DNA of 64,000 nt, taken from assembly GCA_964643065.1 (NCBI GenBank), contig CAZXPD010000001.1:2925-66924 (forward strand), given 5' to 3'. Every line of letters starts with the position of its first letter. Position 1 is the stretch's first letter. Source of the DNA: an uncultured Gammaproteobacteria bacterium (GTDB lineage: Bacteria > Cyanobacteriota > Vampirovibrionia > Gastranaerophilales > CAZEDP01). The notes beneath the pieces are model-generated. The model was not told the DNA's origin. It saw nothing but the letters and a program-made list of their open reading frames with translations, and did not search any database. The position numbers and the translations under genes are program-made. Of this stretch, positions 4,410 through 27,762 are shown piece by piece.

Positions 4410-6449
4410 TTATAGATTCAGTTTATCGAATAAAATCTTATTTCTGTCTCTTGCATCTTGAATCATTTTCTTATAAGAAATGATTTCAAAGTATATATTG
4501 TGAGATGGATGGAATCCAAAATAACCTGAATTATCAGGTGCCGCCGTAAGATAGCCTGAATCCTTTGCGATATTAATTACTTTAGGTGTTAATGAAGTTA
4601 TTATATATGCGTATATTGGAGTATTGGCATTTATAGTTATTGTTTCACCTTGTTTGTCTTTAGCTTTTGATTCTCTTAAATCTTTAACATACTCAATTAT
4701 TTGCTTAACTGGATTTTCATCATCAGTATAATCATTACGTTCAGGTCTTTTAAATTCAATTATTGTTACTGTATTAATTCTTTCATTATCAGTAAGTAGA
4801 AATTGGTGATTAAAAATAGTTATATCTGGTTCTTTTCCCGAATCGGATTCAATCACTTCCATAGATTTTAATTTCTTATCCGAAGCCAAATAATAGTGGT
4901 ATGCCAATTTTTCATCAATTGCCCATAGGTTATGTTTTTCATAATCTATATCATCTGAGGTTTTATTCATTGGAAAAATCATTTGATGAATTGCTTTTTC
5001 CAAAGGATATTTACTGTCATCTTGTTGTTTTTGAAGTTTTGACAATAAATCAAGTACAGATTTTCTATAAGCAACATACTCAGAAAGCTTAGATTTCCCC
5101 ACTTCATTTATTTGATCAACGTAATCTTTAAATTTATTATTTAAAAACTCTAAATCTTCTTTATTCTCAGGTTTTTTAGACAAAAGTTCTCTAGTTTTTT
5201 GTTTCGCTTCTTTATTTACTTTGTAATATTCATCATAAAGCTTAATATCGAGCTCTTTACCCCTTGCACTAGGAGGAATATTTTCTAATTGTGTTTTGTA
5301 TTTATCATTTAGCAAAAGCCTATATTGTGGGCTATTCTTGGTTATATATGATTTTATAGATTTAAATTTTTCACTTTCAATTTTTTCAAGTTGGTCTTTA
5401 ATATCTTCTTTTATTTGTTTAATTGCGGCAGTTGTAATCTCGTCAGAATTTGTAAATAATGAAGATTCATCAAAAATAAAGCCTGCTCTATCTTGGTCAA
5501 CGCTTTCATCTAAATATTTGCCAGTCATAAAAATTTGATAATAAAATTCTTCATTTGTTGTCCGGTCTATCCATTTGCTAGATAAATTAGGAATATAATT
5601 TTTTAAATTAATATTATAAACTTCTCTAGAATCCGCACAAAAATGCAGTTTATGAGCACCCTTTGCTATATCTTTTATTCTCAAATAATGCAAATTAAAA
5701 GCAAGATTATTGAGGTTAAATGATGATTGTTCAATATTTTCACTCAATAAACTATTATTAAATGTAGTATTTAATAGCTCTGAATCAAAATCATTTTTAA
5801 TCACTATTCGAGGGCACTTATCGCTATTAACAAAATAAGAAATAAAGTGATTTATTATCTTTCTTCCTATCGTATCTAGATTTTGACTATATTGCTCTTG
5901 ATATTCGTCTTTTAAACCATCTAACCTTATAATCGTTTGAAATTTAAAATCAGCCTGAGTAATTTCTTCTTTCTCAACAAAATCAGAATCTACTCCCTCA
6001 TTATCAATTGTAAAAGGGAATTTTATTTTGTAATATTTATCATTTTCTTTATAGAAACTCTCTATTTCAACTGATTTAAATGCTTTCAACCATAATAAAC
6101 GGCCTGTGCCTTGTCCACCCTTTTTTTCTTTAAGGTCAGTGTCATACGTTATGAAGGAATCAAAGTTTTTATCAATAAATCCACATCCATTATCAGTAAT
6201 TACAATATTTCTAACAGGGAGCATCTTTAAGTCTTCTTCACTTTTAAAATCAACATGTGTTTGAGTTTTATCTTTTCTGTCAAAGAAAACTTCAATATTT
6301 CCATCTTTACTGCTTTCCAAGTCTTTATTATCGTATATAGACTGAATAGAATTAATTACAGCCTCATAAAGTGGCATCAAGTGATTAGCCTTAATTAATT
6401 TAAGTTTATCAATTCTTCTTTTCAAGTTACTCTTCATTAATGAAGGCAT
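4410..6449 (-). CDS. GHKL-type ATPase (MORC/HATPase_c_3-like) with C-terminal PD-ExK nuclease-like domain
   Basis: Bergerat motifs EAVINSIQS, ITDNGCGF and GGQGTGRL. C-terminal EPDITIF ... TIIEFKRP fits PD...ExK. Confidence 0.75.
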   Translation of the reverse strand: MPSLMKSNLKRRIDKLKLIKANHLMPLYEAVINSIQSIYDNKDLESSKDGNIEVFFDRKDKTQTHVDFKSEEDLKMLPVRNIVITDNGCGFIDKNFDSFITYDTDLKEKKGGQGTGRLLWLKAFKSVEIESFYKENDKYYKIKFPFTIDNEGVDSDFVEKEEITQADFKFQTIIRLDGLKDEYQEQYSQNLDTIGRKIINHFISYFVNSDKCPRIVIKNDFDSELLNTTFNNSLLSENIEQSSFNLNNLAFNLHYLRIKDIAKGAHKLHFCADSREVYNINLKNYIPNLSSKWIDRTTNEEFYYQIFMTGKYLDESVDQDRAGFIFDESSLFTNSDEITTAAIKQIKEDIKDQLEKIESEKFKSIKSYITKNSPQYRLLLNDKYKTQLENIPPSARGKELDIKLYDEYYKVNKEAKQKTRELLSKKPENKEDLEFLNNKFKDYVDQINEVGKSKLSEYVAYRKSVLDLLSKLQKQQDDSKYPLEKAIHQMIFPMNKTSDDIDYEKHNLWAIDEKLAYHYYLASDKKLKSMEVIESDSGKEPDITIFNHQFLLTDNERINTVTIIEFKRPERNDYTDDENPVKQIIEYVKDLRESKAKDKQGETITINANTPIYAYIITSLTPKVINIAKDSGYLTAAPDNSGYFGFHPSHNIYFEIISYKKMIQDARDRNKILFDKLNL

Positions 6450-6492
6450 ATTTTATCTCCAAATTCTTTAGATATGGATAATTATACAAAAA

Positions 6493-8190
6493 TTATGGTT
6501 TTTTACATAATAGATTTATTATTTCATTTTGCCTTGTTTTCAGTAATTCTATAGTCCAATTTTCGTTTTGATCCAAGAATACATAGCTGCCTTTAAAAAT
6601 ATCAAAACCACTCTTTAGATAACGTTGTTTTTTATCTGTAAAATCAAGGTTACTTAATGATGAATTCTTTTTTCTACTTAACAAAATCAGGTTGGCAAGC
6701 TTATGAGTCCATTGTTTTCTATCATCTTCATTAAATATTTTTACCCAGTTACTTGAACTGTCAGGCGTTTGAGGTAACACGTGCTCAACGCTTATATTAT
6801 TATAGCTGGCCAAGTGTACTGTATTATCACTCATTAGAAACTCGTGTTTGAGTAAAACATATCTGGTAAATTTTCTGCCGTAAACATCTGAATTAAAAAT
6901 ATAATTTAATTGATCTTGATTGACATAAAATAATCCTGAATCATTTAAAATTTCATCAGTTGAGGTTGCCAAATCAATTTTTTTCAATATATCATTAATA
7001 TTTTCGATTCTTGAGGTAGGAGACTCTCCTAATATCCAATCTCCAGAAAACTTAAACTCTAATTTTATTAGAAATTCAAGCAAATTAGTTTCATTAAACT
7101 TTTCATAAAACCTTAATAATGGAGGAATCCATTCATTTGAAGGGATGCCTATATTCATTATTGTTATGAGATTTTTATACTTACAGTCTATTTCCAAGTT
7201 ATTCAAGTTTATTAGTTTATCGTAGATATCTTTATATTTTTTTATGCAATCAATAGTTTCCTTACCTTTATTAAGAAGGTTTTTCTTATATATATTTTCT
7301 TCAAATTCTTCTAATAAGTTTTTTCTGGCTTTTTCTTTTACTTTTATTGTTCTGATTAAAGATAAAAATCTATCAAAATCTTCAGTTCCAATCTCACCTT
7401 CAATTGTTTCCCAGGTTAAAGCATAATTTTGTTTCTCATTATCCTGTATAACCCCTATATTAATAGATTTAAGTATATCTGCATTTGACAGGGGTATTCC
7501 TCGGTTATTTAAAATATTAAATAACCTGAAAGCATCTTCTCTATTAGCTGTTGAAACATATATGAAAATTACTTCATTTAACAAGAATGATGTAAAGTTA
7601 GAAATATCACCAAGATTCTTGCTGGCAAAAAAATCCTTCATGTGATTAACAGCATTTACCATATTTACAATAGACGTATTCTTGAATTTCGAGTAATTTT
7701 CAAGCTCTGTTATATTTAGAGTTCCGGATTGTTTTACAATAATTTCTTTTACAAATTTTCCAACATCGTCTCTTATCTTGAAGACAATTCTCATTCGTTC
7801 TGGCGTTCTTTTGAATTCATTTTCTTCTTGATAGAGTAAATCTTGACAAGCATTATTCAACTTATCAGAAATATTTAAATCTCTGATAACAGCTAAAAGT
7901 AAAAATAATGTCGTTAAACGTTGTTGACCATCTAAGACTTCATATTCTTTATAGTCTTTTTTAGATAATTCTTTTAAAACGAGAGAACCCAGAAAATATT
8001 CAGCATCATTTTTATTTTCATAGGCGAACCATAAGTCATCCAATAAATCGGAGATATTGTCTGAATCCCATACATAAGAACGCTGATATTCAGGTATTGT
8101 AAACCAAAAATCACGAAAGAGTCTTCCTTGTATATTAACTTTTTCAGACGTTATTTGGTTCTTATTTGCATTCGTTTCATTTGATATCAT
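6493..8190 (-). CDS. DUF262/DUF1524 protein (GmrSD-like type IV restriction family)
   Basis: N-terminal DGQQRLTT motif (DUF262/ParB-like NTPase). C-terminal His-Me-type region VEHVLPQ ... HKLANLILLSRKKNSSLSN (DUF1524). 4-nt overlap with the upstream helicase-nuclease gene. Confidence 0.85.
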   Translation of the reverse strand: MISNETNANKNQITSEKVNIQGRLFRDFWFTIPEYQRSYVWDSDNISDLLDDLWFAYENKNDAEYFLGSLVLKELSKKDYKEYEVLDGQQRLTTLFLLLAVIRDLNISDKLNNACQDLLYQEENEFKRTPERMRIVFKIRDDVGKFVKEIIVKQSGTLNITELENYSKFKNTSIVNMVNAVNHMKDFFASKNLGDISNFTSFLLNEVIFIYVSTANREDAFRLFNILNNRGIPLSNADILKSINIGVIQDNEKQNYALTWETIEGEIGTEDFDRFLSLIRTIKVKEKARKNLLEEFEENIYKKNLLNKGKETIDCIKKYKDIYDKLINLNNLEIDCKYKNLITIMNIGIPSNEWIPPLLRFYEKFNETNLLEFLIKLEFKFSGDWILGESPTSRIENINDILKKIDLATSTDEILNDSGLFYVNQDQLNYIFNSDVYGRKFTRYVLLKHEFLMSDNTVHLASYNNISVEHVLPQTPDSSSNWVKIFNEDDRKQWTHKLANLILLSRKKNSSLSNLDFTDKKQRYLKSGFDIFKGSYVFLDQNENWTIELLKTRQNEIINLLCKKP

Positions 8191-11100
8191 AACTTTTGCT
8201 CTCCATTGCTATCCTCACAAATATACAAGTAACCGCAATCTGTACACTTTTTATCGTTATTGGTTTTCTGACATGTAGGATTGTTGGCTAAATAAATAAT
8301 TTTGCTTATTTCCGCATCCAAAACAGATTTAGATTGAGATAATTCTTCGTGTCCAGGCTCAAAAACCCTAGCTGCTTCTTCGGTAAGATTTAAAATCTTG
8401 AGCTCATTAATATCAAAGCCCTCATTGCTTAATGCCATTTTATACAAGTAAAGCTGCTTATAATAATCTTCGAGTGATTTTTCAATATTCTTATTGGTTT
8501 TAAAATCAATTATTGAATAGGTCTTATCTGAGTTTTTAATTAAAAGGTCGATATCACCTGCAAACTCAATATTTTTGCCATCAATATTATGAGTAAAATT
8601 AAAACTACGTTCAGGGTAAATAGCCATTCCTGAAAGTTTTTGAGGTGCATAATCGGAGTTTAAAAATGATGAATATAAACTGTTTATTCTTGTTAAATCG
8701 TCACTTTCAATCTGGACACCCAATAAGAATGTAGGGATTTCTGCTTTGTTAAACTCTTTATTATTCATATAACTGCTATAAATTAAGTTATGAACTAGAT
8801 TTCCAATAACTGAAGATTCTTTTTCATCGCCCAATTCAGGATATCTATATTTGTATTTGAACAAATATTTATTCGGGCAATGATTAAATGTATTTATTTG
8901 GCTAAAACTCATTCTAAAATTGCATTGAAGGACTGTTGGCATTGAGGTGTTATTATTAAAAGCCTTTTGATTGTCTGTAATAATGGCAAATGGCTTCAAC
9001 TCTTGTTTTTCAATTGTAATTTCTGAAGTATCGACTGTTTCACTTAAAACAGACAGAGGAAAATATCTTGTATATTCAGCTGGCTTTGAGTTTCCATAAG
9101 AAGTGAAGTTTAAAACATTCAAATACTTTTCAGCTCTACTGATTGCAACATAAAATAATCGTAGTGCTTCATTTTTCTCTCTTGGTTTTTTCCATATTTC
9201 TTTGTATAAAAGAGCTTTAGGAGTCGATTTACCTTCGAATTTATGCACAATTATTCCAAAGCCTGGCTTATCTCCATATTGAAGATCAAAGGAAATATTT
9301 GTACCGTCAATATTTCCACCTTTTGAACTTGTAGAAATACTTGCAATGAATGTATAGGGAAATTCAAGTCCTTTGCTGGCATGTACGGTTAGAAGCTGGA
9401 CAGCATCAATATCTTTAACCGCAAGAGTTGGCAGTTCAAAACTTCTGTTATCTTTAATCCTATCGATATAATCAAGGAAATTACTTATGCTTACATAGTT
9501 TTCACTTTGCATAAAATCAGCAATTATTTTCTCAAAAATCCTTAAATCCAGCTCTGCTCTGTACTGTTCTATGCCACTAAGTTCAAAATACGGTTTTATC
9601 TCATTTATCAGCCTATAATAAATCTGCAAAAGAGATAATGTATTCTTCTGCTGTGATATTGAATAAATAGTTTCAAAAACAAGATTTGTGTAATCTCTAA
9701 CACTTTCAGGTACATCGAGATTATTAATAAGGTTATTTTCTCTTATAAAGGTTAATTTTTCAGACAGATTAAGCTTTTTGAGTTCTTTAAACTCTTTTAT
9801 TTTTAAAATTTCTTTATCCGCCTCAATTTTAAGCCTGTATAATTCCTGATCTGATAGTTTTATCTTTAAAATCCTTGTAAGCGCAATCTCATCCCGTATA
9901 TTTTTAGCCAAACGCAATAAAGCAACTGCATTTCGAATTACAGGATTAATAAAAAAGCCTATGTTTACTTTTTTAATTGACGGAATACCTGCTTCTGTAA
10001 GCTGTTTTTCAATTAATTCAGCTTGAGAATGTGATTTTACAAGTACTGCAAATTCTTTGTACTTTGCATTTTCCTCCGTTTTAAGCCTTATAATCTCACT
10101 TGCAATGTATTTTGCTTCACTGATTTTATGGTTGTATGAGTCGGAAAAACCGTTCAATGTTGTTACTTTTACATGTTTATTTTCTGCATCAAAGGTTTTA
10201 TATGGGTTAGGATTTAAAATCTCATCAAGGGCCAGAGATTCTTCTGTCACATGATTTACTGCATTTAAAACGTGAGGAGTTGAACGATAATTTGTGATTA
10301 ACTTAATTTCAGGATATTTTTGAGCGTATTTTTTCTCAACGTGATTATGCAGCACTTCAAAGTTTTCCATTTGTGCAAACCTGAAACCATAAATAGACTG
10401 CTTCCTATCACCTACAAAGGTAATATTGGCTTGCTTTTCATCAAGAAGCAACTTTATCAATTCGAGCTGAGAACCGTTTGTATCTTGAAATTCATCTATT
10501 ATCAAATGTTTAAAAAGCTTCTGATAATAAAGTCTGATAATTTCGTTTTGCTTTAATATCTGAATAGTCTTGTTTATAAGGTCATCAAAATCAACTGTAT
10601 CGAGTTTTTCAAGTTCTTTTTGATAAACAGCATAAATCAAAGCAACAATTTTAGTTAAATGTAGTTCAATTTCTTCTATTCCATCAATATTTTCAGGAAA
10701 ATCTGTTGAATAACTCCAATCTTGAGGTTTTCTTGAGCCATTTTTAGATAATATTAATTTTTCACCTGCAATTGCCTGGAATGCCCCTTTATCTTCCTTT
10801 TTGCCATCATCTTTGAATATTATATCCTCGTAGCGACAGAAATCATCAGCATATGCCTTTAAATGCTGCCCCCATTCTTCTAAATATTCTTCTTTAGAGC
10901 TGAATCCAAAGGGTATTGTTTTAATCGTTTCAGAATAGTTCTTTATTGCTGCTGTTGATTTATCGAGAAATTCTTTTGCATCAATTCCTAATGATTTTAT
11001 TTTTTTAATCAATGGAAAAATATCATCAAGAATAATATCTAAAGCATTAATTTTATTGAGTTTATTAACGCTATCAATATTTAAAAGCTCCACATTTAAA

Positions 11101-11594
11101 CCCAACGGTGCAGCAGTTTCACCTAAGTTATCAATTGTATTTGCTTCACCATACTTTATTCTTTTTATAATATTGTCAAAAATATCTTTTAACTGTTTTT
11201 CTTCGCCCATTTTTAATGATGGTGAAAGGTTTGCTTCGATAGAGTGCTTTCTCAATATTCTGCTGCAAAAACTGTGAAATGTTGAAATCCATAAATCTTG
11301 ACCAAGGCAATCAACATCATTATCTTTTAATTCTTGAAAAATACGCCCTTTCATTTCATTAGCGGCTTTGTCAGTAAATGTTATAACAAGAAGCCTTGTT
11401 GCTGGATTTTCAACACCATCTTCAATCAAGTCATTGACCAATTTAACAAAGCGTTTTGAAATAATCTTTGTTTTGCCTGTTCCTGCGCCGGCAACTATTT
11501 TAGTACAATGATTAATCGGATTCTCAACAGCCTGTTTCTGTTGTTCATTAAGCCCCTCTGTTATATTAATCCGGGTTTTATTCTTCGTTTCCAT
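8187..11594 (-). CDS. AddA/UvrD-like helicase with C-terminal Cas4/RecB-type Fe-S nuclease
   Basis: GAGTGKT, DEFQDT, VHASKGLEF and YVAISRAEKYL. Nuclease region DIDLL..IIDFKTNK..QLYLY. Cys cluster HCPNKY plus CTDCGYLYIC. Start moved to the ATG at 11594 (METKNK), 6 nt after GAGGAGG. Confidence 0.85.
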   Translation of the reverse strand: METKNKTRINITEGLNEQQKQAVENPINHCTKIVAGAGTGKTKIISKRFVKLVNDLIEDGVENPATRLLVITFTDKAANEMKGRIFQELKDNDVDCLGQDLWISTFHSFCSRILRKHSIEANLSPSLKMGEEKQLKDIFDNIIKRIKYGEANTIDNLGETAAPLGLNVELLNIDSVNKLNKINALDIILDDIFPLIKKIKSLGIDAKEFLDKSTAAIKNYSETIKTIPFGFSSKEEYLEEWGQHLKAYADDFCRYEDIIFKDDGKKEDKGAFQAIAGEKLILSKNGSRKPQDWSYSTDFPENIDGIEEIELHLTKIVALIYAVYQKELEKLDTVDFDDLINKTIQILKQNEIIRLYYQKLFKHLIIDEFQDTNGSQLELIKLLLDEKQANITFVGDRKQSIYGFRFAQMENFEVLHNHVEKKYAQKYPEIKLITNYRSTPHVLNAVNHVTEESLALDEILNPNPYKTFDAENKHVKVTTLNGFSDSYNHKISEAKYIASEIIRLKTEENAKYKEFAVLVKSHSQAELIEKQLTEAGIPSIKKVNIGFFINPVIRNAVALLRLAKNIRDEIALTRILKIKLSDQELYRLKIEADKEILKIKEFKELKKLNLSEKLTFIRENNLINNLDVPESVRDYTNLVFETIYSISQQKNTLSLLQIYYRLINEIKPYFELSGIEQYRAELDLRIFEKIIADFMQSENYVSISNFLDYIDRIKDNRSFELPTLAVKDIDAVQLLTVHASKGLEFPYTFIASISTSSKGGNIDGTNISFDLQYGDKPGFGIIVHKFEGKSTPKALLYKEIWKKPREKNEALRLFYVAISRAEKYLNVLNFTSYGNSKPAEYTRYFPLSVLSETVDTSEITIEKQELKPFAIITDNQKAFNNNTSMPTVLQCNFRMSFSQINTFNHCPNKYLFKYKYRYPELGDEKESSVIGNLVHNLIYSSYMNNKEFNKAEIPTFLLGVQIESDDLTRINSLYSSFLNSDYAPQKLSGMAIYPERSFNFTHNIDGKNIEFAGDIDLLIKNSDKTYSIIDFKTNKNIEKSLEDYYKQLYLYKMALSNEGFDINELKILNLTEEAARVFEPGHEELSQSKSVLDAEISKIIYLANNPTCQKTNNDKKCTDCGYLYICEDSNGEQKL

Positions 11595-14500
11595 CTTCAC
11601 CCTCCTCATCACACAGAAAACCAAATGAACAATTTGAGCATTTCCAGCTCGTATCTGTCTTTTTAAATGATGCTTCTGCTCTTATTTTATCTATAACTGT
11701 TTCTTTAAGATTTTGAACAAGTTTTTCTTTTTTTTCTTCAATTTCACTTGATGCAATTAAATCTTCTTTATAGCCGTTATCCTTAGAGGTTGGTCTAATA
11801 TATTTCAATCCTAAAGCTTCAACTTTATCTTTAAATTCTTCAAGCTCAGGTGCATTCTGACAAGCCAGATAATAAAGAGGAATCTGATATTCATAATCAC
11901 TTATATTTTTTTCGCTAAATTTGCCTTTATACTGCCCATAATCGCCTTCAAAGTTTAAACCATAGTCACTTAAATAATAACTAAGCGGTTTCTTCTTGTT
12001 TTTACCGGTTTTATAGTCAAATACGCAATATATGTCATTATACTTGTATAGAGCATCAATCCTGCCGTCAAACATAACAGCTGGAAGATCATTAAGCTGA
12101 AATGCAAAGCCTTGTTCTGTAATTATTTTCTCCGGCACTTCATTAAAAAAATTATTTAATTCCAAATTATCAACCGCATCGCTAAAATTCTCTTTCATTT
12201 CTGCAAGGTTTAAGTCATCAGATGCAATAACAAGATCGATATCTCTTTCTTTAAATCCTGCATTTAATACGTTCTCAGGATTATTTTTTGAATCAAATAA
12301 AATATCAGCAAGTTTTAAGAGATTTTCTTTATTGTATTTATCAAGACAGGTATTATTAAACACCTCCATTACAGCGTGTACAATTGAACCATAGCTTGCA
12401 GCAAAATTGCTTTTTTCTTTTAAGCTCAAGAGGCTCGTATAATAATATTTTCGAGGACAGGATAAATATATGCCGATAGCAGAAGGATTAAGTTTTAAAA
12501 CCTCATTTTCAGCAATGACTTTTGATTTTATAACTTCTTCGCTTTCTTGTTGGTTTAAATCACAATTATCATTGTTTTCTGAGTGTTTTGGCTCTGCTTC
12601 TTTATAATTGGTATTATCGGTATCAACAAGCATCTGAAAGAAAATAGATGGCTGTACTTGCTTTTTATCCTCATATTTGTGTGTTGAAATAAGCAGTTTC
12701 TCTTTGGCTCTTGTCATTCCAAGATAAAATAGCCTTGCTTCTTCTTCAATACTCTCTTCATCCAGTTCTATAAGGTTTCTAAAATTGCTGTTTATTTGCT
12801 TAAGAGAAGCTGATATCTTTTCATTTGCATCAGGGGAAATAAAATAGGTGGATTTTGCTTTCTTAGGAAAATTATTTTCCGTAAGACAAGGAATATAAAC
12901 GTATTTAAACTCTAAACCTGCTGTCTTAAAAAAAGTTAAAAGGTTCACCGAGTCTTTTATATCAGATTGCTCTTCAAATGACAGGTTGATAAGTTCATTT
13001 AGGGTATTAAAGTCTGGCCTGTCTTTTATTACTCTTGAATACAAATCAGTCATTGCATCAATTTTTGATAAAAGCTTTCCTAGGATAGCGTTGAATTCAG
13101 GATTGTTTAAGATTTCTTTTTGTTTTCTTGCAATAAATACAGTTAATTCAACAAATTTATTTTCCCTATAAAGCTGATAAATTGAAGCTAAATCACCCAA
13201 CTCTGCTAAAAGTTTTTCTTTATCTTCTTCTTTTAAAATACCGATGTTTTCATAAATAACATTAACAAGTGAAGGCTTTTTATATTCTTCTTGAATAGTT
13301 ATAAAGCGGTCTTTTATATAATGATCTTCGAGCGTATCGGAGAGTATATTTTCGATATAAAGATTCAGTTCTTCAAATTGTATTTCAAGCTCTGCTTTTG
13401 AGCTTATGTTGATGTTTGAAAAACCTTGTCTTGAAAATTCTTTAATTCCAAGCTTTTCGCAAATATTGCAGATACTTAGATATCTGGTAAGTTTCAATCT
13501 GAAATTCTGATATTCCTCATTATAAAGCTCACTGTTTATAGGAATTCCGTATGTTTTAAAAAAGTCGATGAATTTTTGTTTTGACTCAAAATCCCTTATC
13601 AAAATTGCAAAATCAGAGAAATTGCAGTTTTCATTTTTAATTTTATCTAATATTTCTTCTGCAATATATGATATTTCAGCCTGAACATCCTCGAATTGAA
13701 TATATTTAATACTTTCAGATTCTTTAAACTCACAATTGAGTTCTTCTGAATTATATTTTTTAACAAGATAAAGTGCTCTTTGTATAATCTCCGGGTTTCT
13801 TTGAGATGAGTCGAGATTTGTAATTTCAATATTATCAAAATATTCTTTTAATGAATCCAAGATCAAACTATCTCTCCAAGCTCCTCTGAACTCCTGAATT
13901 CTTGAATATTCATCACCATAAATGTACAAATTATCAGGATCAGCTATAAATTTGATTAACTTAAACTGCAAATAAGTTATATCTTCAAAACCGTCAATAA
14001 AAATATGACTAAATCTTGATTTAATGGTATTTAAAAGTATTGTATTATCTTCAAGGGCTTTTATTGCAGATAGAACAGAATCTCTGTAATCAAGATAATT
14101 AAAGCGTTTTAGTATTTCATTGTATCTTTTAAAAACACCAGCAATTAGGCGAAGTCTGATTTTATCTGTATCAGTTATCTCTGTCTCATCAATAACTCTG
14201 GTTATATCTTCATATTTTAGTTCATTGTTTTTAAATAAGCCAAAAAGGTTATATAGCTCTCTAAAGAACGAATTTGATTTGGTGAGACTGTTAAGAGCAG
14301 TATTTTGGATAAATTCGCTTTTACAAATTGCTCCAATTATATTAATAGCAAGAGCATCAGATAATGTTTCACTTTCCAAATGAGACGGTGATTTTTTAAG
14401 TATGTATTTATAAAGCTCATCAACAGACCAGATATTTAAATGTTTAGAATTATCATCATTAAGCTTTATTAGTTCTTCTTTTTCACTTGGAGTAAGAGTT

Positions 14501-14613
14501 AATATTAAAATCTGGTAAGGATTAGCAGTCCCGTTATTTAATAAAGAATATACATTCTCTAGTAAATTTCTCGTTTTTCCACTGCCTGCATAGCCCTTAA
14601 TCAGCTTTAACAT
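11578..14613 (-). CDS. AddB-like helicase-nuclease subunit with Fe-S nuclease domain
   Basis: Walker A GYAGSGKT. C-terminal RecB-type nuclease GRIDALY..VFDYKTGK..YQIPLYY. Cys SCPRKY plus CSNCSFGFLC. Overlaps both neighbours. Confidence 0.8.
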   Translation of the reverse strand: MLKLIKGYAGSGKTRNLLENVYSLLNNGTANPYQILILTLTPSEKEELIKLNDDNSKHLNIWSVDELYKYILKKSPSHLESETLSDALAINIIGAICKSEFIQNTALNSLTKSNSFFRELYNLFGLFKNNELKYEDITRVIDETEITDTDKIRLRLIAGVFKRYNEILKRFNYLDYRDSVLSAIKALEDNTILLNTIKSRFSHIFIDGFEDITYLQFKLIKFIADPDNLYIYGDEYSRIQEFRGAWRDSLILDSLKEYFDNIEITNLDSSQRNPEIIQRALYLVKKYNSEELNCEFKESESIKYIQFEDVQAEISYIAEEILDKIKNENCNFSDFAILIRDFESKQKFIDFFKTYGIPINSELYNEEYQNFRLKLTRYLSICNICEKLGIKEFSRQGFSNINISSKAELEIQFEELNLYIENILSDTLEDHYIKDRFITIQEEYKKPSLVNVIYENIGILKEEDKEKLLAELGDLASIYQLYRENKFVELTVFIARKQKEILNNPEFNAILGKLLSKIDAMTDLYSRVIKDRPDFNTLNELINLSFEEQSDIKDSVNLLTFFKTAGLEFKYVYIPCLTENNFPKKAKSTYFISPDANEKISASLKQINSNFRNLIELDEESIEEEARLFYLGMTRAKEKLLISTHKYEDKKQVQPSIFFQMLVDTDNTNYKEAEPKHSENNDNCDLNQQESEEVIKSKVIAENEVLKLNPSAIGIYLSCPRKYYYTSLLSLKEKSNFAASYGSIVHAVMEVFNNTCLDKYNKENLLKLADILFDSKNNPENVLNAGFKERDIDLVIASDDLNLAEMKENFSDAVDNLELNNFFNEVPEKIITEQGFAFQLNDLPAVMFDGRIDALYKYNDIYCVFDYKTGKNKKKPLSYYLSDYGLNFEGDYGQYKGKFSEKNISDYEYQIPLYYLACQNAPELEEFKDKVEALGLKYIRPTSKDNGYKEDLIASSEIEEKKEKLVQNLKETVIDKIRAEASFKKTDTSWKCSNCSFGFLCDEEGEDGNEE

Positions 14614-15455
14614 ATGGTCGCACCTTGTTTAAACAGATTAACATTTATCATTCCAAATTTTGCAGATAAATCATCAATATGGTGCATTAGGTAAAGTTCC
14701 GGCTCTAAATCTCTCTGGTTTAGATCAATAATAGCTTCCCAATCCGTTCTGGAATGATGTGCTGCAATTATTCTAGCAAGCTGATTAAATCCGTTATTCA
14801 TTGCCCAATTAAAACCATATAGCGTATGCGAAATCCAATCTTTTTTGAATTCCTCATTAATTTCAATAAGTCCAGATTCAAGATTAACTTTATACTCAAA
14901 TATTTTGCCAATATCATGCATAATGCAAGCTGCAAAAATAATATCGTGATCAACTTCTTTTCTGAACTTTGGGAATACTGATTGTGCAAATTCAATACAT
15001 TCCCATATATGCTGCATTAACCCACCGACATAATTGTGATGCATTGATTTAGCCGCAGGTGTTACTTTAAATAAGTCTATATTTTCAAAGATTACCTTTG
15101 ATACAGCTTCTTTAAGGTTTTGATTTTTAAAATTGTTGATGACTTCGAGTATATTATTAAAAAGTGTTTCTCTATCTTCTAATTCAAGACCGATAGGAGC
15201 TTCTTCAAGGAGTTCTAGTTCCTTGATATTTACATTTTTAAATTGCTCTTTATATTCACCGGCGATAATTCTAACAGTATTTCCTGTTCTTAAAGCCTTG
15301 GGATCATTATTATCAATAGCTTCTTGCCATAAGACACAATTTAAAACTTCTTTGCTTTTAATATCTTCAAGCTGAAGCTTACCCATTTTATTGCCGTTTT
15401 TAGTATCTGACAGGTGAAATTCCTTAACCACATACTCTGATGAATAATCTATCAT
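14607..15455 (-). CDS. YhaM-like 3'-5' exonuclease (N-terminal OB fold plus HD domain)
   Basis: HD motifs HHNYVGGLMQH and IMHDIGK. The N-terminal approx 90 aa is OB-like. ATG at 15455 preceded by AAGGGAG. 7-nt overlap with the AddB-like gene. Confidence 0.8.
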   Translation of the reverse strand: MIDYSSEYVVKEFHLSDTKNGNKMGKLQLEDIKSKEVLNCVLWQEAIDNNDPKALRTGNTVRIIAGEYKEQFKNVNIKELELLEEAPIGLELEDRETLFNNILEVINNFKNQNLKEAVSKVIFENIDLFKVTPAAKSMHHNYVGGLMQHIWECIEFAQSVFPKFRKEVDHDIIFAACIMHDIGKIFEYKVNLESGLIEINEEFKKDWISHTLYGFNWAMNNGFNQLARIIAAHHSRTDWEAIIDLNQRDLEPELYLMHHIDDLSAKFGMINVNLFKQGATIC

Positions 15456-15531: not shown

Positions 15532-15804
15532 CTATTTTTGGTAATAACCTTCGTAACTACCATTTTTGTTGTACTTTTTGATTTTATTACCCTCGCTCTT
15601 GTAATAGCCCTGATAGCTGCCGCTTTTATTGTATTCTTTTAATTTGTTACCTTCTTGCTTATAATAACCTTGATAACTACCGTTTTTTCCGTATTGCTTT
15701 AGTTTTTCACCGCTTTTAAGTCCAAATTGCGGTGTATTATCGTAAGCAAAACAAGGGGCTGAGATGATTGATATAAGTGCAAATAGTAAAACAATTTTTT
15801 TCAT
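15532..15804 (-). CDS. small secreted protein with three tandem 17-aa repeats
   Basis: Signal peptide MKKIVLLFALISIISAPCFA. Repeat unit K(L/I)KxY(G/N)K(N/S)GSY(Q/E)GYYK three times. RBS AAAGGAGA before the ATG at 15804. Confidence 0.6.
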   Translation of the reverse strand: MKKIVLLFALISIISAPCFAYDNTPQFGLKSGEKLKQYGKNGSYQGYYKQEGNKLKEYNKSGSYQGYYKSEGNKIKKYNKNGSYEGYYQK

Positions 15805-17436: not shown

Positions 17437-18417
17437 TTACCTCTTTAAAGTCTCAAAAGCTTCTGTTAAAAGCTCTTTGTACTCTTTTTTAAGACTTGCA
17501 GGTTGGAGGATTTTAACTAGCTTACCCCATTTAAAAAGATGCCAGCATATAGCAAGACCGCCTGCAGCAGTAAATTCAACTTTTACTGAACCGTCTTTGT
17601 TATCTTTCATTTTTTGAGTCGGGTGAAAATGGAAATTTTTAACATCTTCTGCAACTGATTTATCGAATTGAAGGACAACTTTTATAGGTTCTTCCTGATA
17701 AACCCCGAAAGAATTCTTGGAATATTCTGCCAAATCAAAGTTTTCATCTTTTTCATAATATTCATCAATAATCTTAATCTCTTTTATTTTTGAAAGATTA
17801 TACAGCCTTATTGCTTTTCTATCAGGATTAAACGCTACAAGAAAATGTTTTTCTCCATAAATCACACCGTAAGGATGAACTTTACAGGATTGAATCTCTT
17901 TATTTACTTTTTCATACTTAATCCGAAGAACCTTAAATGCTTTTATAGCTTCCCTTATATTACTTAGGACTTCTTTGTCTATCTTGAATCTTGGATACTG
18001 TCTAACGGCATATTTTTCAGCCTCTAGAAGTGCTTCAAGGTCAGTTTCTATTTTTGATTGCTCTGTTTTATTTAATACTTTTACTTTTGCAAGAATGTCA
18101 TCGATGGTTTCAGCTTTATTGTTTAACCCGTCAACCTCAAGTTTTTTCTTTGTATTCTCAAGTTCCGCAAGCTCTTCAGGAGTAAATGAAATTATTGGAG
18201 CTAAAGAATAGTTTTTTAATCTCCAGCGTTTAACCTTTGTGCCTGTTTCAACTTCTTCTATTTGAGGGAAAAGACGAACTACAGCATCACGCATCCTCTC
18301 GGCAGTTCTTCTTGATACATTAAAATGCTCTTGAATATCATTAAGAGACAAGCCTTTATAGCTTGCCTGGAATAGCAAAGCCAGTTTTAAAATATCTTCA
18401 ACTCGTTCGTATCTCAT
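17437..18417 (-). CDS. WYL-domain transcriptional regulator (HTH-WYL-WCX; BrxR/CapW-like architecture)
   Basis: N-terminal HTH LSLNDIQEHFNVSRRTAERMRDAV. Central WYL-type segment VHPYGVIYGEKHFLVAFNPDRKAIRLYNLSKI. Divergent from the SNF2 operon. Confidence 0.85.
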   Translation of the reverse strand: MRYERVEDILKLALLFQASYKGLSLNDIQEHFNVSRRTAERMRDAVVRLFPQIEEVETGTKVKRWRLKNYSLAPIISFTPEELAELENTKKKLEVDGLNNKAETIDDILAKVKVLNKTEQSKIETDLEALLEAEKYAVRQYPRFKIDKEVLSNIREAIKAFKVLRIKYEKVNKEIQSCKVHPYGVIYGEKHFLVAFNPDRKAIRLYNLSKIKEIKIIDEYYEKDENFDLAEYSKNSFGVYQEEPIKVVLQFDKSVAEDVKNFHFHPTQKMKDNKDGSVKVEFTAAGGLAICWHLFKWGKLVKILQPASLKKEYKELLTEAFETLKR

Positions 18418-18468
18418 GAGGTTTTCCTGTCTCGGTTATTATTAAGCAATTATTACATGGATTTTTAA

Positions 18469-18485
18469 TATGTCCAAATCAGACA
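18469..18485. promoter_or_regulatory. third copy of palindrome TATGTC-N7-GACA, in the WYL/SNF2 intergenic region
   Basis: TATGTCCAAATCAGACA. Lies just downstream of a minus-strand TATAAT (18498-18503) that would serve the WYL gene. Confidence 0.45.
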
Positions 18486-18581
18486 TGGGTTTTTATTATT
18501 ATAAATAAAGGCAAAGCATGTCAAAAGGGCTTTAATTTGCTATAAAACAAGTCATTATTTCAATTTGTTTATGTTACGATA

Positions 18582-18590: not shown

Positions 18591-18653
18591 CTTGTATTTA
18601 TCTTTTGTATATTAAACACAATTTCAAAACAGTTTATACAGTAAGTGGGAACT

Positions 18654-21600
18654 ATGAATTCAAACGAACAGCTTATTAATCAATTTAATGAAATTCTGCA
18701 AAACAGTAAAAACTGTGTTGTTAATATTGTTAATGATAAATTAACTTTGGCTGTATTTTCACTACTAGAAAAAAATCTAAAAAACGTCAAAGAAATTAAT
18801 TTCATTATCAGAGATACAAGATTTATTCCTCAAAATGATGAAATGGTTAGAGAATTTGAAATAAACCCCAATGACACTCTTTTCAATGCTTATGATATTA
18901 CTGAAAAAAATAAATTGCAGTACTTTGAAAAAGCAAAATCAATGTACGAATTTATCTTGAAGAACGTGAATGTCAAAAAGACAACGGCAGCTTGCCAAAT
19001 CAAGGGGAATATTTTAATCGTAGATGATGAATTTATGATTCAAGGCTCATCCTCTTTAGAACGTTCGCCTAAAGCGGTAAAATCAAAAGTGAACAGTATA
19101 AATTTTGATACTGTTATAAACAGTACGATGGATAAAACGCAGATTACTAAAGCCACTGAAACATTTCAGAGGGTTTGGAGTAGTAATGAATACACTGAAG
19201 ACTATAAATCAGAACTGTTAAAAGGCTTAGAATATCTATATAAAGAGCATCCGCCTGAATATTTATACTATTTCACATTAAATGAGCTTTTTGGAGAACA
19301 ACTGGACTACGGTGTTGAAAGATTTGAGCAAGATAATACCAATTTCAAAAAAACAAAAATTTGGGATATGCTCTATGACTTTCAAAAAGATGCTGTTTTA
19401 TCGGCTATACAGAAAATCAATAAATATAACGGTTGTATAATAGCTGATAGTGTAGGTCTTGGGAAAACTTTTGAAGCTCTTGCTGTTATCAAATATTTTG
19501 AATTAAGACAAGACAATGTATTGGTGTTAACACCTGCAAAACTTTATGACAACTGGAATTCATTCAAAGGTGCATATAAAGATAGCATCCTTGATGAAGT
19601 TTTCAATTACAAAATAATGTTCCATACTGATTTATCACGTTACAAAGGCGATTCAAGAAGCGGTTGGGATTTAACCCGATTTGACTGGAGTAAGTTCGAT
19701 TTATTAGTTATTGATGAATCCCATAATTTTAGAAACAGGACAGAAAAAGACTTCGGCTTAACCAGATATCAAAGACTTCTGGAAGAAGTTATCAAGAAAA
19801 ATCAAAATACAAAGGTTTTGTTGCTTTCCGCGACTCCTGTAAACAACTCTCTTAACGATCTTAAAAACCAAATTAGCATTATAACAGCGGATAGAGACTT
19901 TGCTTTTGAAGTTCAGGGGATACCTAGCATAAGCAATCTTATGCGAAAAACCTCAACCTCAATAAATAACTGGGAGAAGTCTCATAATAAGTCTAAAGAG
20001 CAACTGTTTGACAGTTTACCTTCTGAATTCTATAAACTTCTTGAAATGATGACAATTTCAAGAAGCAGAAAGCATATTACAAACTACTATGGAACAGACA
20101 AAGTTGGTAAATTCCCAACCAAGCTTAAACCCGATACAAAAACTCCTCATATAGATTCAGAGCTTACTCTTTTGCACTTTAAAGAAACTAATATGAGACT
20201 GGAAGAGTTAATATTGGCTGTTTATATGCCAATGAAATACATAAAGAGCCAACATAAAGCTTATTACAGGGAAAAATATCAGACTAAATATAACAATAAA
20301 ATTATTTTTAGCCATGAAGACAGGGAGTTCTTTACAGCTAAAATGCACAGGTTTAACCTGTTTAAAAGGCTGGATAGTTCAGTATTTGCCTTTGGCGAAA
20401 CAATAAGAAGGCTAAAAGGTAGAATTGAAAATTATATCAAACTATTAGAGCACAATGCTGATGAAATAGAAGCTCAGGATGATGATTCAGAAGAAAATGA
20501 TTTGAGCCTTGATTATAAATATGAAATCAAAGTTAATCACTTAAACAAAGAGGATTTTCTGACCGATTTGTATTATGACAAACTGGTTCTTGATGAAATT
20601 TATGCAGAAGTGGAAGAAGTTCTGAAAAATAAAAGAGACAACAAGCTTCATGTACTGCTTGATGAACTGAAACGTAAAGTAACTACAACTCCATACAATC
20701 TAGGCAACAAAAAAGTTCTTATTTTTACTGCATTTGCTGATACTGCAAACTATTTATACAATGAACTAGCCAAAGAACTTTCTGATATGGGTATAACAAC
20801 TGCAATGGTTAGCGGTTCAGGTTCTCCAAAAGCTAATAATAAGAAAATCCAACTTGAATTTAATAACGTGCTTTCAATGTTTTCGCCAAAATCAAAACTT
20901 AAAAAGGAAATTCCTGCGGAGGATCAAATAGATGTCCTTATCGGTACAGATTGTATTTCAGAAGGTCAAAACCTCCAAGATTGCGACTGCGTAATAAATT
21001 ATGATATACAATGGAATCCTGTTTCATTGATTCAAAGATTTGGTAGAATTGATCGTATTGGAAGCGTTAATACTCAGATTAAAATGATTAACTTCTTCCC
21101 TCATATAGCTTTAAATGAATATTTAAACCTTGAAAAGCGTGTTAAGAGCAAAATGCTTGCAACAAACCTTGCCTCCACAGGTGATGAGGATATTTTATCC
21201 CCTGAAATGAATGATATTGACTTTAGAAGAAGGCAACTTGAGCGTCTTAAAGATGAAGTTATTGATATTGATGAAGCAAGCGATAATATTTCATTAACTG
21301 ATTTAAATATGAATGAATACTTGTTTGAACTGGCAGAGTATATTAAAAAAGAGCCTGAAATCAAAAAAATGCCTAAAGGAATCTATTCTGTTACTGACGG
21401 CGATAAACAAGGCATTATTTTCTGCTTTAAACACAAAAACAATACGGCAAAGCCTGACAATGACAGTTCATTGTATCCTTATTATTTGATTTATTTAAAC
21501 AATGACGGGGAATTAATACTTGGTAATGCTCAGGCTAGGGACTTATTAAAGCACTTCAGAAAATTGTGTTATCAAAAAGGAGTTCCTGTAAAAGAATTCT

Positions 21601-22520: not shown

Positions 22521-22535
22521 ATAGGAGTGAAGAGT

Positions 22536-24692: not shown

Positions 24693-24703
24693 GAGTGTTA
24701 AAA

Positions 24704-27760: not shown

Positions 27761-27762
27761 TA

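What the first reader, a model, noticed from the sequence alone, without database searches (positions are those of the whole stretch)
4410..15455. Five-gene translationally coupled operon: YhaM-like HD nuclease, AddB-like, AddA-like, DUF262/DUF1524, GHKL-PD-ExK ATPase
Five minus-strand genes are chained by overlaps of 7, 17 and 4 nt and one 43-nt gap. The first three look like a DSB-processing machine: an OB/HD exonuclease plus a two-subunit UvrD/AddAB-type helicase-nuclease. Both subunits carry Cas4-type C..CxxCx5C clusters. They are co-translated (ATGA-type 4-nt overlap at 8187-8190) with a GmrSD-family protein and then a MORC-like GHKL ATPase carrying its own PD-ExK domain. The last two gene classes are known from restriction and defence contexts, not from housekeeping repair. 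The operon thus has at least five nuclease domains and three NTPase engines. Either a housekeeping addAB operon acquired defence passengers, or the AddAB-like pair is itself part of a multi-component anti-phage or anti-plasmid system. I know of no named system with this composition.
Basis: partly seen in the sequence, partly recalled or inferred. Interest (0 to 1): 0.6.

Follow-up and report, generated by a model that had tools for sequence, protein, structure and literature searches.

The report
AddAB repair operon with defence passengers
The five tightly packed genes are real, but they are not one new machine: a DNA-break repair gene pair (AddAB) conserved across this gut-bacterial order has a YhaM-like nuclease upstream and two known, mobile, independently acting anti-phage genes (a GmrSD restriction enzyme and a GHKL-type Shedu nuclease) downstream.

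Summary
There are five minus-strand ORFs with overlaps of 7, 17 and 4 nt and one 43-nt gap, and nearly all the stated domains are present. The "single five-gene system" reading fails.

The AddB→AddA pair occurs in every sufficiently long locus of 38 from Candidatus Gastranaerophilales genomes. Its usual neighbours there are housekeeping genes, including recA in 8 loci. None of those loci carries the GmrSD or GHKL gene. In the closest relative (AddA 88% identical) the same downstream slot holds a Hachimoji system (HamA/HamB).

The 679-aa "GHKL–PD-ExK" protein is a full-length homologue (E 1e-114) of VcSduA. VcSduA is the experimentally validated GHKL-type Shedu of Vibrio cholerae, earlier called "paraMORC3". 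It works alone, and there too it sits beside a GmrSD-like system that acts independently. Relatives of the GHKL gene in 80 metagenome loci have no recurrent partner, and they occur on 55 plasmids.

The HD protein is a YhaM-like gene that is widespread in the order. It lies next to AddB only in this subclade.

The cluster is therefore a core repair operon inside a strain-variable defence island, which also holds a WYL regulator and a Type III R-M system. Each part is a new member of a known kind. Interest is low.

The parts
14607..15455 (-). YhaM-like HD-domain phosphohydrolase/exonuclease (282 aa from the ATG at 15455). It has a strong AAGGGAG ribosome-binding site and a TATAAT upstream.
   Evidence: PF01966 at 2.8e-9. 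NCBIfam YhaM at 1e-17, well below the equivalog cut-off. PDB YhaM 9h3f at E 5e-13. About 2000 homologues, typically in housekeeping contexts. Start region read.
11578..14613 (-). AddB-like subunit (1011 aa). It has a UvrD-like domain with Walker A (GSGKT), but motif II reads DGFED, so the catalytic Glu is missing. It also has a C-terminal RecB-family PD-(D/E)xK nuclease with four invariant Cys (C719, C992, C995, C1001).
   Evidence: Pfam. Alignment A1 invariants. Orthologues in 38 Gastranaerophilales loci.
8187..11594 (-). AddA-like subunit (1135 aa). It is an intact UvrD/PcrA-type SF1 helicase (GTGKT, DEFQD) with a C-terminal PD-(D/E)xK nuclease that also carries Cys...CxxCx5C.
   Evidence: Pfam. 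NCBIfam. Always immediately downstream of AddB in related loci. C-terminal alignment.
6493..8190 (-). GmrSD-family Type IV (modification-dependent) restriction endonuclease (565 aa). It combines a DUF262 domain (QR and DGQQR motifs) with a DUF1524 His-Me nuclease. It is a passenger gene.
   Evidence: PF03235 at 1e-35 and PF07510 at 4e-21. PADLOC models Orf5/HEC-06/SspE up to 1.6e-80. Absent from all AddAB loci. Full-length homologues on 101 plasmid records. GC 28.1%.
6450..6492 (-). 43-nt spacer between GmrSD and the GHKL gene. It contains a perfect TATAAT (6486-6481) preceded by TG, and a GGAG ribosome-binding site. It is a candidate internal promoter.
   Evidence: Read from the sequence. Not statistically distinguishable from chance in this AT-rich DNA.
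4410..6449 (-). GHKL-ATPase Shedu (VcSduA-like, 'paraMORC3', type I-D Shedu), 679 aa. It has a Bergerat ATPase domain, a transducer-like middle domain, a helical linker and a C-terminal PD-(D/E)xK nuclease (D542, E565, K567). It is a passenger gene.
   Evidence: Motifs. AF2 and Foldseek. 32% identity over the full length, E 1e-114, to V. cholerae P0078; E29 and K567 align with the residues VcSduA needs for defence, E27 and K557 (PMC12137116). It is a solo gene in varied defence and mobile contexts. GC 27.8%.
17437..18417 (-). Context gene: HTH-WYL-WCX transcription regulator. It is syntenic with the AddAB locus in the nearest relatives.
   Evidence: Pfam. PADLOC WYL. Homologues in L010 (60%) and in L013 and L015 (about 81%).
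18645..28671 (+). Context cluster: SNF2 helicase, DUF4391, Type III Mod methyltransferase, Type III Res and a 302-aa unknown protein. Together these form the rest of the defence island.
   Evidence: Pfam. PADLOC: C3a139 at 1.7e-228, MTase_III at 7e-146, REase_III at 2e-174.

Best explanation
The cluster is a mosaic of four evolutionary units that happen to be packed head to tail. It is not one system.

(1) AddB-AddA is the lineage-conserved double-strand-break end-resection helicase-nuclease of Candidatus Gastranaerophilales. AddA is the active SF1 motor plus a nuclease. AddB is a motor-dead, ATP-binding UvrD-like subunit plus a nuclease. Each carries an Fe-S-type Cys4 cluster. By inference from the AddAB/AdnAB families, the complex binds DNA ends, unwinds and degrades them, and hands the product to RecA.

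(2) A YhaM-like HD nuclease, a widespread gene in this order, has come to lie directly upstream in this subclade.

(3) A GmrSD Type IV restriction enzyme and (4) a GHKL-type Shedu nuclease are horizontally mobile, single-gene anti-phage systems. They were inserted downstream of addA, in a slot that holds other defence cargo in sister genomes. By inference from their families, each acts on its own. GmrSD uses its NTP-dependent DUF262 sensor to license the His-Me nuclease on modified phage DNA. The Shedu uses its GHKL ATPase to gate the PD-ExK nuclease.

Co-transcription with addBA is likely, given the absence of terminators and the ATGA overlap. It reflects compact genome organisation and insertion into an operon tail, not an obligatory partnership.
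For: Shown:
- AddB followed by AddA occurs in every sufficiently long locus of the 38 GTDB species-representative loci, almost all Gastranaerophilales.
- Their flanks there are housekeeping genes: GNAT in 17 loci, heptosyltransferase in 9, RecA in 8, plus SLH and LptFG.
- There are no GmrSD or GHKL hits in any of those loci. Of all window ORFs, only AddA and AddB are shared beyond the nearest relatives.
- The closest relative, L050 (AddA 88%), has HamA/HamB after addA. L008 (75%) and L133 (68%) have no passengers at all.
- GHKL homologues: in 80 metagenome loci there is no recurrent neighbour. A DUF262 gene occurs in only 2 loci and is never the adjacent upstream gene. The neighbours are R-M, AAA_15/21, T4CP and integrase genes. 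The 53%-identical homologue follows an HpaII R-M system in a resolvase-bearing island. The 69%-identical homologue lies a few kb from an ArdC-family gene on a short contig. Homologues occur on 55 plasmids, 29 of them conjugative.
- No full-length AddB homologue occurs on any plasmid. GmrSD homologues cover at least 80% of the protein on 101 plasmid records.
- The GHKL protein is a full-length homologue of VcSduA, with the catalytic E and K aligned. VcSduA protects on its own, and the adjacent GrwAB (GmrSD-like) system was shown to be independent (PMC12137116).
- The passenger genes have among the lowest GC in the window, 27.8 and 28.1% against a gene median of 35.2%.
- HD homologues lie in housekeeping contexts elsewhere in the order.

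Inferred: the biochemical roles, from family membership.
Against: - All five genes are co-directional with no terminator-like site between them, and there is a true ATGA stop/start overlap between addA and gmrSD. Co-expression, and therefore some functional interplay, cannot be excluded.
- The addAB genes themselves also have below-median GC, 30-31%.
- In this subclade every sampled AddAB locus sits among defence or mobile genes: L010, L012, L013, L015, L050.
- Only 64 kb of the genome is available, so I could not test whether a second AddAB or RecBCD exists elsewhere.
- The HD gene is retained upstream of AddB in four subclade loci despite strong sequence divergence (47% identity in L015, where AddB is 91%). 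That could mean a functional link I have not explained.
Confidence: 0.85

Rival explanations
1. All five genes form one obligatory multi-nuclease anti-phage or anti-plasmid system, in which the AddAB-like pair is a dedicated defence motor.
For: Tight packing with overlaps and no terminators. Location in a defence island. UvrD-like helicases occur in known defence systems; the proteins hit PADLOC GajB and RTasHel models through their helicase cores.
Against: The five-gene combination was found nowhere else. None of the 38 AddAB loci contains GmrSD or GHKL. None of the 80 GHKL loci contains an AddAB-like pair, and only 2 contain any DUF262 gene. AddAB is conserved across the order with recA and housekeeping neighbours and is absent from plasmids. 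The PADLOC hits cover only the generic helicase core.
Confidence: 0.03
2. GmrSD and the GHKL-Shedu form a cooperating two-gene cassette that moves and works as a unit. This would be analogous to the two-gene GmrSD-like systems GrwAB and TgvAB.
For: They are adjacent, share very low GC (27.8 and 28.1%) and are both absent from relatives. The same two families are neighbours in the V. cholerae VSP-II WASA variant (PMC12137116).
Against: In V. cholerae the two were genetically separated and each works alone, and the authors report that they are rarely found together elsewhere. In 80 GHKL loci a DUF262 gene is never the adjacent upstream gene. The closest GHKL homologues (69% and 53% identity) have no GmrSD neighbour. 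The 43-nt spacer carries its own TATAAT and RBS.
Confidence: 0.08
3. The passengers are independent systems, but their insertion into the addBA transcription unit is selected. They would be co-regulated with the break-repair genes, perhaps through the nearby WYL regulator or DNA damage. Their cleavage products, linear phage DNA with free ends, would be degraded by AddAB, as RecBCD degrades restricted DNA in E. coli.
For: The ATGA overlap and the lack of terminators. Different nuclease-type defence cargo sits co-directionally on both sides of addBA in sister loci: HamAB in L050, Mrr_cat in L015, PDDEXK_4 in L010, HIRAN in L012. The WYL regulator is syntenic in L010, L013 and L015. YhaM is listed in the LexA/SOS regulon of Bacillus (PMC3896406).
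Against: There are no expression data. Most of the order has plain housekeeping flanks. Overlapping or abutting genes are the norm in this genome, so the arrangement needs no special selection. L008 and L133 have no passengers.
Confidence: 0.2

Closest known systems
AddAB (Bacillus subtilis type) and AdnAB (mycobacterial) helicase-nucleases
   Same: Two adjacent genes, each with a UvrD-like SF1 domain and a C-terminal RecB-family PD-(D/E)xK nuclease. One subunit (AddA) has intact motor motifs. The other (AddB) has Walker A but a degenerate motif II, and an Fe-S-type Cys4 cluster around the nuclease. recA is a neighbour in 8 related loci.
   Different: Scores are far below the NCBIfam equivalog cut-offs: addA_Gpos 193 bits against 708, addB_Gpos 67 against 904. 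The gene order is B then A. AddA also carries the Cys...CxxCx5C cluster, which, to my knowledge, the B. subtilis AddA lacks. AddB retains most UvrD motifs, which makes it look more like AdnA. A large sister branch of the order has an AddA with no nuclease domain.
GmrSD / BrxU / SspE family Type IV restriction enzymes
   Same: Single polypeptide with an N-terminal DUF262 domain (QR and DGQQR motifs) and a C-terminal DUF1524 His-Me nuclease. Strong PADLOC matches to the Orf5, HEC-06 and SspE models.
   Different: Substrate (which DNA modification) is unknown. Here its start codon overlaps the addA stop codon. It is not embedded in a BREX, Dnd or Ssp system.
VcSduA, the GHKL-ATPase Shedu of Vibrio cholerae (type I-D Shedu; 'paraMORC3' of Iyer et al. 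2008)
   Same: Full-length homology, 32% identity, E 1e-114. GHKL motifs I-III are present. The catalytic Glu (E29, aligned with E27) and the nuclease Lys (K567, aligned with K557) are both conserved (PMC12137116). It is a stand-alone gene in defence islands and on plasmids. It is even found next to a GmrSD-type gene, as in the VSP-II WASA variant.
   Different: It comes from a different phylum and is only about 32% identical. Pfam DUF4263 and PADLOC Shedu models do not detect it. Its target phages are unknown.
YhaM / Cbf1 3'-5' exonuclease (Firmicutes)
   Same: HD domain with the H...HD motif. It aligns with the solved YhaM structure 9h3f over residues 72-271 (E 5e-13). The length is similar. 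In Bacillus, YhaM is listed in the LexA/SOS regulon (PMC3896406).
   Different: It scores 64 bits against the 460-bit equivalog cut-off. The N-terminal OB fold was not demonstrated. In most Gastranaerophilales the gene is not near AddAB.
Defence islands and integration hot spots next to core genes
   Same: Strain-variable defence cargo lies between conserved anchors (WYL regulator, addB, addA). The cargo includes Hachimoji, Mrr/ZorD-like genes, Type III R-M, GmrSD and Shedu.
   Different: No integrase, tRNA gene or repeat boundary was identified here. The cargo is inserted co-directionally inside and at the tail of the repair operon.

Membership tests
AddAB-type helicase-nuclease | Two adjacent subunits, each with an SF1 UvrD-like domain and a C-terminal RecB-family PD-(D/E)xK nuclease | tested here: met
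   Both proteins carry PF00580 + PF13361 + PF12705. The GDIDLL...DFKTNK and GRIDAL...DYKTGK nuclease motifs are visible in the sequence.
AddAB-type helicase-nuclease | AddA has an intact motor. AddB has Walker A but an inactive or degenerate motor. | tested here: met
   AddA has GTGKT and DEFQD. AddB has GSGKT, but motif II reads D207-G208-FED, conserved in 14 homologues. That the motor is actually inactive is inferred.
AddAB-type helicase-nuclease | Fe-S cluster ligands (Cys...CxxCx5C) flanking the AddB nuclease | tested here: met
   C719, C992, C995 and C1001 are invariant in alignment A1. AddA has the same pattern, conserved in 14 of 15 sequences.
AddAB-type helicase-nuclease | Passes the curated equivalog models (NCBIfam addA/addB) | tested here: not met
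   addA_Gpos scores 193 bits against a cut-off of 708, addA_alphas 173 against 861, addB_Gpos 67 against 904. This is a divergent lineage-specific branch, so I describe it as 'AddAB-like'.
AddAB-type helicase-nuclease | Core, vertically inherited repair gene pair, one per genome | tested here: inconclusive
   38 species loci carry the pair, with recA and housekeeping neighbours. There is no plasmid copy and no second copy within the 64-kb window. The whole genome could not be searched for another AddAB or RecBCD.
AddAB-type helicase-nuclease | ATP-dependent end resection, Chi response | not testable with these tools
   Needs biochemistry.
GmrSD family (Type IV restriction) | N-terminal DUF262 with QR and DGQQR motifs | tested here: met
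   PF03235 at 1.1e-35. The motifs 'PEYQRSYVW' and 'LDGQQRLT' are in the translation.
GmrSD family (Type IV restriction) | C-terminal DUF1524 His-Me nuclease | tested here: met
   PF07510 at 4e-21, residues 438-559. 'VEHVLPQ' and the downstream Asn residues are present.
GmrSD family (Type IV restriction) | Cleaves modified DNA only | not testable with these tools
   Needs phage challenge or biochemistry.
GHKL-type Shedu (VcSduA / paraMORC3) | N-terminal GHKL (Bergerat) ATPase with motifs I-III and a transducer-like middle domain | tested here: met
   E29/N33, D86xG88xG90 and G111xxG114xG116 are conserved. The AF2 model (pLDDT 79) matches Hsp90, SMCHD1, GyrB and MutL at E 1e-11 to 1e-9 over about 400-460 columns. 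16 of 27 homologues hit PF13589.
GHKL-type Shedu (VcSduA / paraMORC3) | C-terminal DUF4263-type PD-(D/E)xK nuclease | tested here: inconclusive
   D542, E565 and K567 are invariant, and K567 aligns with the essential K557 of VcSduA. However, there is no Pfam DUF4263 or PADLOC Shedu hit. The isolated-domain model was poor (pLDDT 70, below 50 for the first 76 residues) and gave no significant fold match.
GHKL-type Shedu (VcSduA / paraMORC3) | Full-length homology to the validated member | tested here: met
   BLASTP against V. cholerae P0078: 32% identity over residues 25-679, E 1e-114. Adding 22 residues to P0078 numbering reproduces the paper's E27 and K557.
GHKL-type Shedu (VcSduA / paraMORC3) | Single-gene system with no obligate partner | tested here: met
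   The neighbours are heterogeneous in 80 loci and in the closest homologues.
YhaM-like HD exonuclease | HD phosphohydrolase domain homologous to YhaM | tested here: met
   PF01966. PDB 9h3f YhaM at E 5e-13 and Cbf1 9o7t at 6e-7.
YhaM-like HD exonuclease | N-terminal OB fold | not tested
   Residues 1-71 gave no sequence match.
YhaM-like HD exonuclease | Passes the NCBIfam equivalog cut-off | tested here: not met
   63.9 bits against a cut-off of 460.
   No AddAB locus of 38 carries GmrSD or GHKL. No GHKL locus of 80 carries an AddAB-like pair, and only 2 carry any DUF262 gene.

The most novel reading that the evidence does not exclude
In one Gastranaerophilales subclade the addBA operon may serve as a dedicated docking site for nuclease-type defence genes. 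Strain-variable cargo (GmrSD + GHKL-Shedu here; Hachimoji, Mrr/ZorD-like, PDDEXK_4 and HIRAN genes in sister strains) is plugged in co-directionally upstream and downstream of addBA. The cargo would then be co-transcribed with the end-resection machine, possibly under the syntenic WYL regulator. AddAB would finish off the DNA ends that the defence nucleases create, and the end-sensing Shedu would be kept in balance with the cell's own end-processing enzyme.
Probability: 0.12. Interest if true: 0.5.

Novelty: new member of a known kind. Interest (0 to 1): 0.2.

Why it matters
The finding does not reveal a new defence system. It gives three modest results.

- It describes the AddAB-type repair enzyme of the poorly studied, uncultured Gastranaerophilales (non-photosynthetic relatives of cyanobacteria). 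Both subunits carry Fe-S-type cysteine clusters.
- It gives a clear example of defence genes inserted into the tail of a core repair operon, with different cargo in sister strains.
- It records an independent second case of a GmrSD enzyme next to a GHKL-type Shedu, as in pandemic V. cholerae.

It is also a caution: gene overlap and co-orientation in a compact, AT-rich genome do not by themselves define a functional system.

Tried and rejected
- Pfam, PADLOC and NCBIfam on the 679-aa protein gave no hits. A profile search of PDB sequences found nothing meaningful. The protein's identity came from motifs, a structure model and the literature.
- I modelled the isolated C-terminal domain to prove the PD-ExK fold. 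The model was poor and Foldseek gave no significant match. McrC and NucC appeared only at E of about 1, so I did not use them.
- I searched for tRNA genes and Rfam families as island boundaries. None were found.
- The promoter and terminator scans did not differ from shuffled sequence. The TATAAT in the 43-nt gap is therefore only a suggestion.
- I considered GC content as evidence that the passengers are foreign. They are low (about 28%), but addAB is also low (30-31%), so composition alone is weak evidence.
- I tested whether the 287-aa protein upstream of AddB in L014 is a diverged HD protein. It shows no similarity.
- I checked whether the GmrSD start codon might be an artefact. About 25 nt after the addA stop resemble the L050 flank, and TTG to TTA creates the ATG. 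However, there is no alternative in-frame start before the DUF262 domain, and homologues align from residue 10-13. I therefore kept the ATG at 8190.
- I rejected AdnAB membership as such, because AddB lacks the catalytic Glu of motif II.

Full report
**Observation.** The five minus-strand ORFs exist as described. I read every junction from the sequence.
- The HD stop and the AddB start share ACCATATGTTAA, a 7-nt overlap.
- The AddA ATG at 11594 lies 17 nt before the AddB stop and is preceded by GAGGAGG.
- The AddA stop and the GmrSD start share TTATGA at 8187-8190.
- A 43-nt spacer (6450-6492) separates GmrSD from the last gene.

No terminator-like site lies between the genes. The promoter-like and terminator-like counts in the region do not differ from shuffled sequence. 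This packing is not unusual for the window. Of 45 co-directional neighbouring gene pairs, 19 overlap and 13 more are within 20 nt. The co-directional run also continues on both sides, with a HAD-like gene and a 97-aa repeat protein upstream and a 252-aa membrane protein downstream.

**Domains.** Pfam confirms the following:
- an HD domain in the first protein;
- UvrD-helicase + UvrD_C + PDDEXK_1 in both large proteins;
- GmrSD_N + GmrSD_C in the fourth protein.

The HD protein matches the solved YhaM structure 9h3f (E 5e-13, residues 72-271). It falls far below the NCBIfam YhaM equivalog cut-off. Its N-terminal OB fold was not tested.

AddA has canonical Walker A and DEFQD motifs. AddB keeps Walker A and most UvrD motifs, but motif II reads D-G-F-E-D, conserved across 14 homologues. 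Its four cysteines (C719, C992, C995, C1001) are invariant. AddA carries the same Cys...CxxCx5C pattern, conserved in 14 of 15 aligned orthologues.

The 679-aa protein gave no hit in Pfam, PADLOC or NCBIfam. An alignment of 27 homologues shows the GHKL motifs (E29/N33, DxGxG, GxxGxG) and an invariant D542...E565-x-K567. An AlphaFold model (pLDDT 79) matches Hsp90/HtpG, SMCHD1, GyrB and MutL ATPase modules. 16 of the 27 homologues hit HATPase_c_3.

**Organism and conservation of AddAB.** The closest AddB homologues are from Candidatus Gastranaerophilales MAGs. A scan of one genome per GTDB species with an AddB profile returned 38 loci, almost all from this order. In every locus long enough to judge, AddB is followed directly by AddA.

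I scanned the two genes on each side of the pair in these loci against Pfam. The recurrent families are GNAT acetyltransferase (17 loci), heptosyltransferase (9), RecA (8), SLH and LptF/G. These are ordinary chromosomal neighbours, and recA is a functional partner.

No full-length AddB homologue occurs in 72,556 plasmid records, and there is no second pair in the window. This is what a lineage-conserved repair enzyme looks like. I could not search the whole source genome for another AddAB or RecBCD.

**The passengers.** tblastn with the GmrSD and GHKL proteins found no match in any of the AddAB loci. Of all window ORFs, only AddA and AddB are shared with loci beyond the nearest relatives.
- In the closest relative, L050 (AddA 88% identical, same C-terminal ...QKL), the gene after addA is HamA followed by HamB. 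This is a Hachimoji system.
- In L008 (75%) addA is followed by convergent housekeeping genes.
- In L133 (68%) it is followed by convergent unknown genes and a WYL regulator.

The slot downstream of addA is therefore variable, and GmrSD + GHKL is one of several fillings.

**Identity of the last gene.** Its homologues are widespread across phyla. The 53%-identical homologue follows a Vsr-Dcm-HpaII R-M system in an island with resolvases. The 69%-identical one lies a few kb from an ArdC-family gene on a short contig.

In 80 metagenome loci the flanking genes are heterogeneous. They include Type I/II/ISP R-M components, AAA_15/AAA_21 ATPases, conjugative coupling proteins and integrases. A DUF262 gene occurs in only two loci and is never the adjacent upstream gene. 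Homologues occur on 55 plasmids, 29 of them conjugative.

The literature search found that this architecture is already characterised. VcSduA of West African-South American V. cholerae is a Shedu with an N-terminal GHKL ATPase and a C-terminal DUF4263 PD-(D/E)xK nuclease. It was earlier annotated paraMORC3 and is now classed as type I-D Shedu. It protects on its own, and E27A or K557A abolishes protection (PMC12137116; Shedu classification in bioRxiv 10.1101/2023.08.10.552793).

My hit P0078 is the V. cholerae protein lacking 22 N-terminal residues. It aligns with the window protein over its full length (32% identity, E 1e-114), with E29 and K567 at the positions of E27 and K557. In V. cholerae, VcSduA also sits next to a GmrSD-like system (GrwAB). 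Genetic dissection showed the two to be independent, and the authors note they are rarely together elsewhere.

The one weak point is the nuclease fold. Pfam DUF4263 and PADLOC Shedu models do not hit. A separate model of the C-terminal 200 residues was too poor for a significant fold match.

**GmrSD.** The protein has both family domains, with the QR and DGQQR motifs and the His-Me signature. It gives strong PADLOC matches to the models named Orf5, HEC-06 and SspE. Plasmid matches covering at least 80% of the protein occur on 101 records. The best is 50% identical, in a Firmicute. It is a typical mobile, single-protein Type IV restriction enzyme.

**The HD gene.** It has about 2000 homologues. 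Hundreds of these are 50-55% identical and of the same length, on long contigs. In a representative genome it lies among housekeeping genes (DHH phosphoesterase, BrkB, CinA) and not near AddAB.

Among the AddAB loci it appears upstream of AddB only in the window's subclade, and there it is separated from AddB by variable genes:
- DUF6884 + a 219-aa protein in L013;
- Mrr_cat + a 342-aa protein in L015;
- a 158-aa protein in L133.

L010 has a PDDEXK_4 protein in that position instead, L012 has a HIRAN protein, and L014 has unrelated proteins. The direct 7-nt HD-AddB overlap is so far unique to this window.

A link between YhaM and DNA-damage genes is known in Bacillus, where yhaM is listed in the LexA/SOS regulon (PMC3896406). 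A loose functional association is therefore plausible but not shown. One thing remains unexplained. In L015 the HD protein is only 47% identical although AddB is 91% and the WYL regulator 81% identical.

**Context.** To the right of the cluster lie a WYL-WCX regulator and an SNF2/DUF4391/Type III Mod/Type III Res cluster. The WYL gene and the SNF2 gene are syntenic in the nearest relatives.

Gene GC from 3.5 to 29 kb is 27-34%, against a window median of 35%. The two passenger genes, at about 28%, are among the lowest in the window. The whole left part of the window is thus a defence island built around, and into, the addBA locus.

**Verdict.** Each component is a new member of a known family. 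The five genes do not form a recurrent unit.

What remains open is whether co-transcription with addBA has functional meaning, for example coupled regulation or AddAB degrading the ends made by the defence nucleases. I give that about 0.1-0.2 probability. Interest is low (0.2).

Noticed in passing
Loci L017, L019, L020, L022-L036, L038, L040, L043, L045, L048 (AddA ORFs of about 815-860 aa): More than half of the Gastranaerophilales AddAB loci have an AddA that ends after the helicase. No AddA-type PD-ExK domain lies anywhere within 10 kb, and only the AddB nuclease cross-matches. This is a 'single-nuclease' AddAB branch. The window's clade keeps both nucleases.
   Followed up: partly
window 8187-11594 (AddA C-terminus, about 8200-8900) and the aligned orthologues: AddA as well as AddB carries a Cys...CxxCx5C pattern, conserved in 14 of 15 orthologues. 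This implies two Fe-S-type clusters per heterodimer. To my knowledge, Fe-S clusters are described only for AddB in Bacillus.
   Followed up: partly
L013 4861-5930; L015 7035-9929; L133 4207-4683; L010 8865-9980; L012 9585-9992; L014 8086-9901: The gene or genes immediately upstream of AddB, in the same orientation, differ in every subclade locus. They are DUF6884 + 219 aa, Mrr_cat + 342 aa, 158 aa, PDDEXK_4, HIRAN, and unknown 264 + 287 aa proteins. In L015 the HD protein is only 47% identical to the window's although AddB is 91% identical. This suggests cassette exchange between the WYL and addB anchors.
   Followed up: partly
L013, L015, L050 (all from MAG STD2_79, JAQVCB01): Two contigs end inside addB and one begins inside it. 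Their upstream cargo differs. This looks like assembly breaks caused by strain-level variation at this locus within one sample.
   Followed up: no
window 17437-28671: A WYL-WCX regulator lies divergent from an SNF2 helicase (PADLOC C3a139 'HKD+Snf2', 1.7e-228), DUF4391, a Type III Mod, a Type III Res and a 302-aa protein with no family hit. This is a second, larger defence module next to the AddAB cluster.
   Followed up: partly
window 8163-8190 versus L050 3647-3680: The first 25 nt or so after the addA stop resemble the corresponding flank in L050. A synonymous TTG to TTA change in the last addA codon creates the ATG used by gmrSD. The overlap may have arisen at or after insertion.
   Followed up: partly
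window 15532-15825: A 97-aa protein with a predicted signal-peptide-like N-terminus and three 'NKxGSYxGYYK' repeats. It has a 51%-identical homologue upstream of AddAB in L010 and L011. Function unknown.
   Followed up: no
window 60490-61464 and 52716-53318: Two further genes have very low GC (22.6% and 25.7%, against a median of 35%). They may be additional foreign insertions elsewhere in the window.
   Followed up: no
window 3583-4341: A 252-aa multi-pass membrane protein with no Pfam hit lies 68 nt downstream of the Shedu gene on the same strand, with no terminator between them. It is unclear whether it belongs to the inserted cargo or to the core genome. It has no homologue in any AddAB locus.
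   Followed up: no
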